In this document: positions 8,647 to 9,998 of the stretch, piece after piece
Layout of the letters: each line of letters opens with the position of its first letter
Position numbering within the stretch: position 1 is the first letter of the stretch
The notes under the pieces: model-generated
What the model saw: only the letters and a program-made list of their open reading frames with translations
The model's database searches: none
What the model was told of the DNA's origin: nothing
IMG/VR virus record: IMGVR_UViG_3300029911_000461
Length of the DNA: 16,350 bases
Source of the DNA: a virus
Strand: one strand, 5' to 3'
Program-made: the position numbers and the translations under genes

Positions 8647-9471
8647 ATGCTACACTTCATATTCCCGGCTGACCCGCTGAACCCGAAAAAGCTGGATGAG
8701 TATTTCGCCCCGCAGGCGTCCGCTCTGAAACGCTACCCCAACTCTGTGTACTCCACTGAGGCAGGTGGAATCTGGGGAGATTGCAGTAACAACCCGAGAG
8801 GGTTCGATGGTGCTGTGGTAGTGTATCGTGGCTGGATGCTAAACTCGGCTGAATACCGCGCTATGACAGACAAGGTGAAGACGATGGGTGGGCGGCTGTT
8901 TACTCGCCCGGAGGACTACATTCGCTGTCACCACCTGCCGTGCTGGTACCCGCTGATAGCGGGGCTGACTCCTGATACTGTAGTTTTTCCTGAGTTCTGT
9001 TTCACCCCGCAGTTCAACCTCGTGCTGGCTCTACAGGCATTGGGGTGGGAGCACTACTTTATCAAGGACTATGTGAAGTCCCTGAAGCTGGAGAACCATC
9101 CATCGGTGACGACACCGCAAGATGTCCTCACACTGCTTGATGCCATGACAAAATTCCGTGGCAAGTTGGAGGGCGGCATCTGTGTTCGCCGGGTGGAGAA
9201 ACTGACCGACGAACGCCGCTTCTTCGTTATCCAAGGACGGACTATCGGGGTTTCGGGGGAGTGGGCAAAGGTGGACACCAACGGTATTTACGACCTGCTT
9301 GAGACTGTTCGTACCCGCGTGGCGTCTCCCTTCTACTCCGTGGACATCGCGATTCGCGACGACGGCCAGCCTCGGGTGGTAGAAATTGGAGACGGTCAAG
9401 TATCAGACTTGGTTGGTAACTGGACCCCGGAGGCGTTTGCCAACATTTGGGCCGGAGTGTACCATGATTAA
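8647..9471 (+). CDS. ATP-grasp fold protein (R2K / DUF4343-like), ~274 aa
   Basis: ORF 8563..9471. The internal ATG 8647 has SD GGAGG at 8630-8634. Motifs typical of the ATP-grasp C-terminal half: YFIKDYVKSLK, ICVRRVEKL, ERRFFVIQGRTIGVS, SVDIAIRDDGQPRVVEIGDGQVSDL. A variant promoter-like element CCGGGGATACTAAA lies at 8612-8625. Confidence 0.7.
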   Translation: MLHFIFPADPLNPKKLDEYFAPQASALKRYPNSVYSTEAGGIWGDCSNNPRGFDGAVVVYRGWMLNSAEYRAMTDKVKTMGGRLFTRPEDYIRCHHLPCWYPLIAGLTPDTVVFPEFCFTPQFNLVLALQALGWEHYFIKDYVKSLKLENHPSVTTPQDVLTLLDAMTKFRGKLEGGICVRRVEKLTDERRFFVIQGRTIGVSGEWAKVDTNGIYDLLETVRTRVASPFYSVDIAIRDDGQPRVVEIGDGQVSDLVGNWTPEAFANIWAGVYHD

Positions 9472-9583
9472 ATTTTGGGACAGGTTGCTCAAGTCGGAAG
9501 TCGATATAGTTCGTACCTTGATAAACCTCACCTTGATTCACGAGGTCGATTTTTACTTGGGAGACGATAGTGAAGAAGAATAA
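9464..9583 (+). CDS. Possible micro-ORF, 39 aa (MIKFWDRLLKSEVDIVRTLINLTLIHEVDFYLGDDSEEE)
   Basis: ATG 9464 overlaps the stop of the ATP-grasp gene (ATGATTAA). GGAG lies 6 nt upstream. Its stop overlaps the start region of the next gene. Could be a genuine coupled small protein or a chance ORF. Confidence 0.35.
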   Translation: MIKFWDRLLKSEVDIVRTLINLTLIHEVDFYLGDDSEEE

Positions 9584-9998
9584 AATTCCGTCCGAAAAAC
9601 GAATCTATGTTGTAGTGGCCGAGACTGTCTCCACCCCAGAGGGAGAGGTAGTTCAGGTACCGGGGAGAATCGCGGCTCAGGCTGTGCATGTGGCCAGCCG
9701 GATGAAGATGCACCAGATTATAGGGTTGAGTGAGAAGCATCAGTTGGCGAGAGCAGACGAGGCCATCACCACTATCATTCTCGGGGCTCGTGACTCGAAT
9801 GAGTTGCGTCATGTACAGCGGCTGTTGGAGAAGGCGGAGATCGAGCACTACACTTTTGAAGATATCAACCCCGCCGTTTATGGTGAGGATTGTGGTGCCC
9901 CCTGTGAAGTGACAACTGCCTTGGCAACCGTTCCGGTAATGCCGGAAGAGGTGGTGGATATCCTCGACTACCTTCCTCTGTGGGCACCCCGCTCCTAG
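9570..9998 (+). CDS. Peptidyl-tRNA hydrolase, PTH2 (archaeal/eukaryotic) family, 142 aa
   Basis: GTG start with GGGAGA 5 nt upstream. [12 protein letters not shown] matches PTH2 [46 protein letters not shown] matches [57 protein letters not shown] matches [23 protein letters not shown]. Confidence 0.7.
   Translation: [142 protein letters not shown]

What the first reader, a model, noticed from the sequence alone, without database searches (positions are those of the whole stretch)
8647..9998. ATP-grasp (R2K-like), micro-ORF and PTH2 peptidyl-tRNA hydrolase cassette
An ATP-grasp ligase-type enzyme is followed, with overlapping start and stop codons, by a 39-aa acidic-tailed micro-ORF and then by a PTH2-family peptidyl-tRNA hydrolase (GTG start). 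PTH2 is the archaeal/eukaryotic-type Pth, unusual in a phage. A phage-borne peptidyl-tRNA hydrolase could rescue ribosomes and tRNAs when host defence or toxin systems provoke translational abortion, or detoxify aberrant aminoacyl or acetyl-aminoacyl tRNAs made by GNAT toxins. R2K ATP-grasp enzymes form peptide bonds on proteins, peptides or nucleotides. Tight coupling suggests they act in one pathway.
Basis: partly seen in the sequence, partly recalled or inferred. Interest (0 to 1): 0.55.

Follow-up and report, generated by a model that had tools for sequence, protein, structure and literature searches.

The report
Phage ATP-grasp ligase beside PTH2-like hydrolase
A large soil phage carries a peptide-ligase-type enzyme, a tiny orphan gene and a divergent peptidyl-tRNA-hydrolase-like gene back to back, but related phages show the neighbours are two separately inherited accessory genes, not a dedicated three-gene pathway.

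Summary
Positions 8647-9471 encode an intact R2K.3 ATP-grasp ligase. Positions 9464-9583 hold a 39-codon ORF overlapping both neighbours. Positions 9570-9998 (GTG start) encode a 142-aa protein with a confident PTH2 fold.

PTH2 genes and R2K ligases are already documented in jumbo phages. The window lies in the rIIA-rIIB-Ku early region of a large soil or peat phage, in one co-directional gene string running on into a major-vault-protein-like gene.

Of 27 non-redundant relatives with at least 3 kb on both sides, 17 have the PTH2-like gene without R2K3. Seven have R2K3 1.9-6.6 kb downstream. Two, counting the window's own cluster, have it upstream. One keeps only an R2K3 remnant. Eighty bacterial R2K3 loci have no PTH2-like gene and no conserved neighbour. 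The phage R2K3 genes form one clade, so one acquisition plus rearrangement explains the adjacency. The micro-ORF has no homologue, although its codon usage looks coding.

The PTH2-like protein belongs to a small divergent family of 360 clusters. Its putative catalytic Lys is replaced by an invariant Arg, and its activity is untested.

Verdict: ordinary accessory genes, modest interest.

The parts
8647..9471 (+). R2K.3-family ATP-grasp ligase, 274 aa
   Evidence: Pfam R2K_3 at E=4.4e-18. Alignment A2 shows the invariant residues K140/K144/K147, R181, D233 and E246-x-G-D249. The AF2 model has pLDDT 90. The best structural matches are DcsG, ArgX/LysX, RimK, Ddl and PsnB.
9464..9583 (+). 39-codon orphan ORF overlapping both neighbours; probably a translated coupling ORF or a lineage-specific small protein
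   Evidence: Overlaps of 8 nt and 14 nt, with GGAG 6 nt upstream. Codon usage looks coding. The only match among 5.8 billion proteins is itself. No RNA structure signal, z=-0.8, and no Rfam hit.
9570..9998 (+). PTH2-fold protein of a small divergent phage-borne family, 142 aa, GTG start
   Evidence: Pfam PTH2 at 26 bits against a cut-off of 23. AF2 pLDDT 94.6. The 14 best PDB matches by Foldseek are all Pth2, with target-normalised TM 0.47-0.77; the first 12, at E<=1.3e-4, have TM 0.69-0.77. hhalign against a canonical phage PTH2 gives probability 75%, E=2.7e-5. Family invariants are Y13, Q29, G32, R33, Q37, H40, T67, D98, Y104, L135 and P136.
8348..8593 (+). 81-aa protein (phrog_33577, unknown function), first small gene of the same co-directional string
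   Evidence: PHROG hit at E=3e-13. A homologue lies upstream of the PTH2-like gene in L156.
10129..12588 (+). Major-vault-protein-like protein, 819 aa; the most consistent immediate downstream neighbour of the PTH2-like gene in this sub-lineage
   Evidence: Pfam MVP_shoulder at 3.5e-26 and Vault_3 at 1e-9. A homologue lies on the same contig as the PTH2-like gene in L020/L134/L135, L138/139, L142 and L172. Its position directly downstream was read from coordinates only for L020, 56% identity.
7182..7226 (+). Promoter-like element TAGACAAAyCyGGT..CCCGGTATACTGTAAA ahead of Ku. The only other copy is at 12918, so Ku through the MVP-like gene is probably one transcription unit.
   Evidence: Two matches against 0 expected.
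7236..8222 (+). Ku-like DNA-end-binding protein; a synteny anchor of the lineage, together with rIIA at 3106-5532 and rIIB at 5525-6757
   Evidence: Pfam Ku at 1.7e-20. PHROG rIIA at 1e-98 and rIIB at 2e-56. Shared synteny with relatives.

Best explanation
The three ORFs are real. They are neighbours by descent and local rearrangement, not a dedicated pathway.

Setting. The window is the early or accessory 'rIIA-rIIB-Ku' region of a large, probably jumbo, soil or peat phage. All genes from Ku to the MVP-like gene point the same way. They probably share the promoter-like element at 7182.

R2K.3 ligase. It has a complete set of catalytic residues. By analogy with RimK, LysX and CDC123, it most likely uses ATP to form an acyl-phosphate on a carboxylate of a protein target and ligates an amino acid or peptide to it (inferred). 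In bacteria it is a stand-alone gene, so its target is probably a conserved cellular protein, not a neighbour.

PTH2-like protein. It keeps the Pth2 fold and the residues that align with the Gln, His and Asp of canonical Pth2. An invariant Arg replaces the Lys. It most likely hydrolyses the ester bond of peptidyl-tRNA or N-blocked aminoacyl-tRNA and so recycles tRNA during infection (inferred, untested).

Micro-ORF. The 39-codon ORF is probably translated. Its main effect is likely to pass terminating ribosomes from the ligase gene to the weak GTG start of the PTH2-like gene. Its acidic tail (GAAGAAGAA) is the other-frame reading of the Shine-Dalgarno sequence and Lys-rich start of that gene.
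For: Shown:
- Domain, motif and fold assignments.
- Synteny rIIA/rIIB/Ku...PTH2-like in many contigs of 78-436 kb.
- Among 27 non-redundant PTH2-like clusters with at least 3 kb on both flanks, 17 lack R2K3. Seven have it 1.9-6.6 kb downstream. Two have it upstream (the window at -69 nt, L138 at -893 nt). One keeps only a 47-aa R2K3 remnant beside an intact PTH2-like gene.
- The ORFs between the two genes differ in every relative.
- None of 80 bacterial R2K3 loci has a PTH2-like gene within 5 kb, and no neighbour family recurs in more than 5 of the 80.
- All R2K3 genes of this phage lineage form one clade. Its two sub-clades match the two gene orders.
- The contig of the closest R2K3 relative (77% identity) has ORFs called as 101 aa and 82 aa after the ligase gene, neither with a Pfam hit.
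- The micro-ORF is an orphan but looks coding.
- Strongly acidic tails occur only where an ORF overlaps the Lys-rich start of the PTH2-like gene.
- The promoter-like element occurs only at 7182 and 12918.
Against: - R2K3 lies within 7 kb of the PTH2-like gene in about one third of well-flanked relatives. That is high for a rare gene. All these phages share ancestry, so the observations are not independent, but a loose functional link cannot be excluded.
- In one sub-lineage the order R2K3 -> variable slot -> PTH2-like -> MVP-like has persisted down to about 40% protein identity.
- No enzymatic activity has been shown for R2K.3 enzymes, nor for this PTH2-like family.
- The NJ tree has no bootstrap support values.
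- No DNA was available for the closest relative, so its downstream ORFs could not be read.
Confidence: 0.6

Rival explanations
1. One-pathway cassette. The 39-aa peptide with its GDDSEEE tail is a substrate or carrier for the R2K.3 ligase, as S6 is for RimK, LysW for LysX/ArgX and PsnA for PsnB. The PTH2-like enzyme acts in the same pathway, for example by handling the aminoacyl- or peptidyl-tRNA involved.
For: The start and stop codons overlap tightly. The closest structural analogues of the ligase are LysX/ArgX, RimK and PsnB, all of which act on carboxylates of small acidic proteins or peptides. The peptide has a tail charge of -7 and looks coding. R2K3 and the PTH2-like gene co-occur in about one third of relatives.
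Against: The peptide has no homologue in 5.8 billion proteins. ORFs following R2K3 in relatives are unrelated to one another: a TPR protein, a membrane peptide, Cys-rich proteins. Most have basic or neutral tails. The acidic tail is encoded by the Shine-Dalgarno sequence and Lys-rich start of the next gene read in another frame. The PTH2-like gene survives where R2K3 has decayed (L134) and in 17 of 27 lineages without it. Bacterial R2K3 genes have no partner.
Confidence: 0.08
2. The 142-aa protein has the PTH2 fold but is not a peptidyl-tRNA hydrolase. The family has taken on another substrate or a binding role.
For: The Lys that aligns with the catalytic-site Lys of canonical Pth2 is an invariant Arg. 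The family-specific invariant motifs R74-D75-S-x-E78-L-x-H81 and ILDYLPLW are absent from canonical Pth2. The Pfam score is only 26 bits, against 112 bits for a canonical phage PTH2. There is no NCBIfam hit. The family profile retrieves only 360 clusters, which suggests canonical Pth2 proteins are mostly not reached. The list carries no names, so this is an inference.
Against: Gln37, His40 and Asp98 align with the conserved Gln, His and Asp of canonical Pth2. The fold match is specific: the 14 best PDB hits are all Pth2. One family member is fused to a Clp_N domain, which fits a role in handling nascent chains. RNA ligase genes lie on the same contigs in relatives.
Confidence: 0.25
3. The 39-codon ORF is not a gene. 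Positions 9472-9569 are a plain intergenic spacer that happens to be open in one frame. A rarer variant is that the ORF is joined to the PTH2-like frame by a +1 slip on the T5 run at 9550-9554.
For: There is no homologue. Near-identical contigs carry no polymorphism that could test selection. The equivalent slot in relatives holds unrelated ORFs. The PTH2-like frame is open from 9537, and a T5 run lies in the overlap.
Against: The codon-usage score in its own frame is about 4 sd above the off-frame distribution and within about 1 sd of real genes. GGAG lies at the ideal 6-nt spacing, and the ATGATTAA overlap matches the geometry expected for termination-reinitiation. Independent pipelines call the ORF. 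Nothing supports frameshifting.
Confidence: 0.3

Closest known systems
R2K.3 family of ATP-grasp enzymes (Pfam PF14243; Burroughs, Zhang & Aravind 2015, PMC4431377)
   Same: The full-length alignment carries all family invariants. These are the two-lysine signature, the Arg of the first kinase-like strand, the Asp of strand 4, the diagnostic ExGD motif and a conserved pre-ATP-grasp domain. As in bacteria, it has no conserved operon partner.
   Different: It is phage-borne. The 2015 paper described R2K.3 as bacterial with rare archaeal members and placed the phage examples in R2K.2. Here a whole clade of R2K.3 genes sits in large soil phages. No member of the family has a known substrate.
Pth2 peptidyl-tRNA hydrolases of archaea and eukaryotes, and the PTH2 genes of jumbo phages (Iyer et al. 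2021, PMC7824862)
   Same: It has the same fold, with target-normalised TM 0.70-0.77 to 3erj, 2zv3, 1xty, 1rlk, 1wn2 and 1q7s. The conserved Gly, Gln, His and Asp align. It is carried by large phages, as already reported for PTH2.
   Different: It is very divergent: 26 Pfam bits against 112 for Mycobacterium phage Phabba gp41, and no NCBIfam hit. An invariant Arg replaces the Lys next to the AQxxH motif. The conserved motifs RDSxELxH and ILDYLPLW are extra. The family is discrete, with 360 clusters at 50% identity.
RimK-S6, LysX/ArgX-LysW and PsnB-PsnA (ATP-grasp ligases with small acidic protein or peptide substrates)
   Same: These are the best structural matches of the ligase model. A small ORF with an acidic C-terminus follows the ligase gene.
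   Different: In those systems the partner is conserved. Here the small ORF is an orphan and relatives have unrelated ORFs in its place. This is a resemblance only, and membership is not claimed.

Membership tests
R2K.3 ATP-grasp (PF14243) | Pfam model matched above the gathering score | tested here: met
   66.5 bits against a cut-off of 26.3, E=4.4e-18
R2K.3 ATP-grasp (PF14243) | ATP-grasp fold with a pre-ATP-grasp domain | tested here: met
   AF2 pLDDT 90.2. The top 50 Foldseek PDB matches are ATP-grasp-fold proteins, mostly ligases such as DcsG, ArgX/LysX, RimK, Ddl and PsnB, at E of about 1e-9. Residues 1-130 align across the family, with invariant F20, Y60-R-G-W-M64, H95, P98 and W100.
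R2K.3 ATP-grasp (PF14243) | [quoted passage not shown] | tested here: met
   FIK140DYVK144SLK147, with K140, K144 and K147 invariant in 35 sequences. Which of the three are the two signature lysines was not settled structurally.
R2K.3 ATP-grasp (PF14243) | Arg in the first strand and an acidic residue in the fourth strand of the kinase-like domain | tested here: met
   R181 (CVRRVE) and D233 (YSVDIA) are invariant.
R2K.3 ATP-grasp (PF14243) | ExGD motif in place of ExN in the last strand (diagnostic of R2K.3) | tested here: met
   E246-I-G248-D249, all invariant
R2K.3 ATP-grasp (PF14243) | ATP-dependent amide or peptide ligase activity | not testable with these tools
   Literature searches here found no biochemical data for any R2K.3 member.
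Pth2 peptidyl-tRNA hydrolase (PF01981) | Pfam model matched above the gathering score | tested here: met
   The match is marginal: 26.0 bits against a cut-off of 23, E=1.1e-5. Only some family members pass.
Pth2 peptidyl-tRNA hydrolase (PF01981) | Pth2 alpha/beta fold | tested here: met
   AF2 pLDDT 94.6. The 14 best PDB matches are all Pth2. The first 12 have E between 1.3e-6 and 1.3e-4 and target-normalised TM 0.69-0.77.
Pth2 peptidyl-tRNA hydrolase (PF01981) | Match to the curated NCBIfam models used to name Pth2 orthologues | tested here: not met
   No NCBIfam family at E<=0.01. phmmer against PDB sequences finds nothing. The family profile reaches a PDB Pth2 only at E=0.065.
Pth2 peptidyl-tRNA hydrolase (PF01981) | Active-site Lys before the AQxxH motif (K18 of S. 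solfataricus Pth2; Fromant et al. 2005, recalled from memory, not held in the library) | tested here: not met
   The aligned residue is R33, which is invariant as Arg in 49 family members.
Pth2 peptidyl-tRNA hydrolase (PF01981) | Active-site Asp of the DAG motif (D86 of S. solfataricus Pth2; recalled from memory) and the conserved Gln and His | tested here: met
   D98, Q37 and H40 are invariant and align with the D, Q and H of canonical Pth2.
Pth2 peptidyl-tRNA hydrolase (PF01981) | Hydrolysis of peptidyl-tRNA or N-acyl-aminoacyl-tRNA | not testable with these tools
   This needs an enzyme assay or complementation of pth(ts).
Conserved functional gene cassette (R2K3 + small ORF + PTH2) | Adjacency conserved across diverged lineages, or independent re-association | tested here: not met
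   Only the window's own near-identical contigs have it. Relatives have spacings from -0.35 to +6.6 kb in both orders, absence of R2K3 in 17 of 27, and one R2K3 remnant. The phage R2K3 genes form a single clade. None of 80 bacterial loci has a PTH2-like gene.
LysW/S6-type carrier or substrate peptide paired with an ATP-grasp ligase | A conserved small acidic-tailed partner encoded next to the ligase | tested here: not met
   The micro-ORF is an orphan. ORFs downstream of R2K3 in 17 related loci are unrelated to one another, and most do not have acidic tails.

The most novel reading that the evidence does not exclude
The 39-aa peptide ending in GDDSEEE is a true substrate or carrier of the phage R2K.3 ligase, comparable to LysW or the C-terminus of S6. 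The co-translated PTH2-like esterase works on the same product or on the tRNA-linked donor. If so, the three genes would form a compact ribosome-independent peptide-tagging module, and R2K.3 would have its first identified substrate.
Probability: 0.05. Interest if true: 0.75.

Novelty: new member of a known kind. Interest (0 to 1): 0.27.

Why it matters
Practical lesson: overlapping start and stop codons in a phage early region are weak evidence for a shared pathway. Such regions are shuffled strings of independent accessory genes.

Two leads remain worth recording.

First, a discrete and very divergent PTH2-fold family exists. It has about 360 clusters at 50% identity, an invariant Arg in place of the canonical Lys, and the new motifs RDSxELxH and ILDYLPLW. 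It is a stable resident of the rII-Ku region of large soil phages. Testing it would show whether phages carry a tRNA-recycling esterase with altered specificity.

Second, R2K.3 ligases have no known substrate in any organism. A phage clade of them offers an expression-friendly entry point for finding one.

Tried and rejected
- Nucleotide search of the phage collection found nothing. tblastn with the ligase found nothing.
- tblastn with the PTH2-like protein found only Tunturiibacter jumbo phage Tunturi_5 gp176. It sits among SbcD, DnaB and UvsX genes with no ligase nearby.
- The micro-ORF could not be searched at 39 aa. Extended by one residue, it found only itself.
- A selection test on the micro-ORF was impossible. 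The 11 related contigs carry 3 SNPs in 5.3 kb, none of them in the three genes.
- An RNA element in the 98-nt spacer was rejected: no Rfam hit, fold z=-0.8. The hairpin plus T-run at 9530-9556 is within chance expectation.
- A defence-system link was rejected: no PADLOC hit.
- No tRNA genes are present.
- An independent test in Myrna-like phages used Phabba, because Myrna has a PTH2 and the 2015 paper lists an R2K member for it. The five ORFs of 239-397 aa and two smaller ORFs within 12 kb of Phabba PTH2 gave no R2K hit. This covers only part of one genome.
- DNA of the closest relative (P0116, 77% identity) was not available, so its 101-aa and 82-aa downstream ORFs could not be read. They start with the same 8-nt overlap and the same frame offset as the micro-ORF and the PTH2-like gene. 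The PTH2-like search returned no 82-aa protein. The micro-ORF search returned nothing but the micro-ORF itself.
- Published catalytic residues of Pth2 could not be retrieved from the held library. They are quoted from memory and flagged as such.
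Full report
Observation.

The first ORF (8647-9471, 274 aa) starts at an ATG whose position matches the N-termini of 34 homologues. The second (9464-9583, 39 aa) starts inside ATGATTAA, which holds the stop codon of the first gene. It ends 14 nt inside the third. The third (9570-9998, 142 aa) starts at GTG, the first possible start in that frame. This start fits the conserved N-terminal 'KRIYVVV' of its homologues. GGAG lies 6 nt upstream of both the ATG at 9464 and the GTG at 9570. 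The same gene calls appear in at least 11 contigs from different metagenomes. These differ from the window by 0-2 bases in 5.3 kb.

The ligase. Pfam places it in R2K_3 (E=4.4e-18). An alignment with 34 homologues of 43-78% identity shows that it keeps every invariant residue. Against the feature list of Burroughs et al. 2015, it has the following:
- the lysines of the R2K signature (K140, K144, K147)
- the Arg of the first kinase-like strand (R181)
- the acidic residue of strand 4 (D233)
- the ExGD motif diagnostic of R2K.3 (E246-I-G-D249)
- a conserved pre-ATP-grasp region

The AlphaFold model is confident, with pLDDT 90. Its best PDB matches are amide-forming ATP-grasp ligases: DcsG, ArgX/LysX, RimK, D-Ala-D-Ala ligase and PsnB. 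It is an intact member of R2K.3. The literature searches found no substrate reported for this family.

The PTH2-like protein. Pfam PTH2 is matched only just above threshold, at 26 bits against 23. NCBIfam gives nothing. PDB sequences give nothing by phmmer. A profile of 49 family members reaches a PDB Pth2 only at E=0.065. The fold is nevertheless clear. The model has pLDDT 94.6. The 14 best PDB matches are all Pth2 structures; the first 12, at E<=1.3e-4, have target-normalised TM 0.69-0.77. Profile-profile comparison with a canonical phage PTH2 (Phabba gp41, 112 Pfam bits) gives 75% probability.

These alignments pair G32-R33 with the canonical G-K. They pair Q37 and H40 with the AQxxH motif, and D98 with the Asp of the DAG motif. 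From memory (Fromant et al. 2005, not retrievable here), the Lys and Asp are the residues implicated in catalysis in S. solfataricus Pth2. The Asp is therefore kept, and the Lys is an invariant Arg. The family also has its own invariant motifs, RDSxELxH and ILDYLPLW.

A profile search of 1.84 billion representatives finds only 360 proteins at E<=1e-3. That result has no names or annotation. The small count suggests a discrete family that canonical Pth2 proteins mostly do not join. One member is fused to a Clp_N domain. I read this protein as a divergent esterase of the Pth2 superfamily. It probably still acts on acylated tRNA, but with real uncertainty.

Context. The window encodes the following, all on one strand:
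- rIIA (3106-5532) and rIIB (5525-6757)
- a 106-aa ORF
- Ku
- an 81-aa PHROG protein
- the three ORFs of the finding
- an 819-aa protein with MVP shoulder and vault-repeat domains

A 45-nt promoter-like element occurs only ahead of Ku (7182) and ahead of the ORF at 12967, against 0 expected by chance. Ku through the MVP-like gene is therefore probably one transcription unit, and the three ORFs are not an operon of their own. Relatives of the PTH2-like gene lie on phage contigs of up to 436 kb. They share the rIIA/rIIB/Ku synteny and often carry RNA ligase, DNA ligase and DnaJ-like genes nearby. The only cultured hit is the 309-kb Tunturiibacter phage Tunturi_5.

Is the linkage conserved? I collected 110 loci carrying the PTH2-like gene, which fall into 75 clusters at 90% identity. 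I searched them with family HMMs. The 27 clusters with at least 3 kb on both sides break down as follows:
- 17 have no R2K3.
- 7 have R2K3 1.9-6.6 kb downstream, separated by several small ORFs (six to nine in the loci where they were listed).
- 2 have it upstream: the window at -69 nt and L138/139 at -893 nt.
- 1 (L134) has only a 47-aa N-terminal remnant of R2K3, 400 nt upstream of an intact PTH2-like gene.

Shorter contigs add L142 (-982 nt), L165 (-348 nt) and L132 (+2.1 kb). The ORFs between the two genes are different in every case. Conversely, R2K3 is common in bacteria, with more than 435 loci found. In the 80 fetched, no PTH2-like gene lies within 5 kb, and no neighbour family recurs in more than 5 loci. 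Other phage R2K3 loci also lack the PTH2-like gene.

An NJ tree, without bootstrap, puts all R2K3 genes of the PTH2-bearing phage lineage in one clade. Its two sub-clades correspond to the two gene orders. One acquisition followed by one rearrangement is enough to explain this, and there is no sign of repeated re-association. The contig of the closest ligase relative (77% identity) has ORFs called as 101 aa and 82 aa downstream. Neither has a Pfam hit, and no DNA was available. In this sub-lineage the more consistent partner of the PTH2-like gene is the MVP-like gene. It lies on the same contig in L020/134/135, L138/139, L142 and L172. In L020 it starts about 115 nt after the PTH2-like gene.

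The micro-ORF. Its only match among 5.8 billion proteins is itself. The near-identical contigs carry no polymorphism that would allow a selection test. Three things favour translation: the Shine-Dalgarno sequence, the overlap geometry, and a codon-usage score of +0.40 bits/codon in its own frame. That compares with 0.68 +/- 0.25 for real genes and -0.9 +/- 0.32 for off-frames. There is no sign of a structured RNA.

The acidic tail catches the eye because the ligase's structural analogues act on acidic tails of small proteins. However, the tail is encoded by GGAGACGATAGTGAAGAAGAATAA. That stretch is the Shine-Dalgarno sequence and Lys-rich start of the next gene, read in another frame. Among 17 related loci, the only other strongly acidic tail (L165) is again an ORF overlapping the start of the PTH2-like gene. 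The most economical reading is a translated coupling ORF, or a lineage-specific small protein of no conserved function.

Comparison with what is known. PTH2 in jumbo phages, and R2K ligases in jumbo phages, were both described by Iyer et al. 2021. Many phage and giant-virus proteins in BFVD named peptidyl-tRNA hydrolase match the model. Phage MVP homologues were reported in a 2023 preprint. What is less charted is that this PTH2-like protein belongs to a separate, very divergent family. Also less charted is that R2K.3, not R2K.2, has a phage clade.

Verdict. The loci are new members of known kinds, of modest interest. The residual novel possibility, a peptide substrate for R2K.3, is not excluded but is unlikely at about 5%.

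Noticed in passing
window 10129-12588 (+): An 819-aa protein with major-vault-protein shoulder (E=3.5e-26) and vault-repeat domains lies directly downstream of the PTH2-like gene. Homologues lie on the same contigs as the PTH2-like gene in L020/L134/L135 (56% identity), L138/139, L142 and L172. Phage MVP homologues were reported in a 2023 preprint on gut phages, but this soil-phage clade and its fixed position were not followed further.
   Followed up: partly
window 7182-7226 and 12918-12960 (+): Two copies of a promoter-like element of about 45 nt, TAGACAAAyCyGGT..CCCGGTATACTGTAAA, each about 25 nt ahead of a gene start (Ku at 7236, ORF at 12967). Chance expectation is 0. This is probably a phage-specific promoter that delimits transcription units.
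   Followed up: partly
L134 5624-5767: A 47-aa N-terminal remnant of an R2K3 gene lies 400 nt upstream of an intact PTH2-like gene followed by an MVP-like gene. This is natural decay of the ligase while the hydrolase-like gene is kept.
   Followed up: yes
protein P0254 (305 aa; from the representative search): A fusion of an N-terminal Clp_N domain (E=7e-14) to the divergent PTH2-like domain. It hints at a link to the handling of nascent chains or protease substrates. It could also be a gene-calling artefact.
   Followed up: no
window 3106-5532 and 5525-6757 (+): rIIA-like (phrog_612, E=1e-98) and rIIB-like (phrog_609, E=2e-56) genes, followed by Ku. This rII-Ku synteny is shared by contigs of 78-436 kb and marks the lineage.
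   Followed up: partly
L010 9317-9889; L015 13549-14082: In the sub-clade where R2K3 lies downstream of the PTH2-like gene, the ligase gene overlaps the start of a TPR-repeat protein of 177-190 aa, which is followed by an ATP-dependent DNA ligase. This may be a real partner of R2K3 in that sub-clade.
   Followed up: no
window 9530-9556 (+): A weak hairpin (6-bp stem) followed by a T5 run lies inside the micro-ORF, 14 nt before the GTG of the PTH2-like gene. The PTH2-like frame is open from 9537, so a +1 slip on the T run would fuse the two ORFs. No evidence supports either attenuation or frameshifting.
   Followed up: no
window 2357-3049 (+); L211 9-611: A small protein with a UVR (UvrB/UvrC) motif lies upstream of rIIA. 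In the 36-kb sister contig the product called at the start of the locus (200 aa) carries Helicase_C, UvrB and UVR hits, suggesting a UvrB C-terminal fragment.
   Followed up: no
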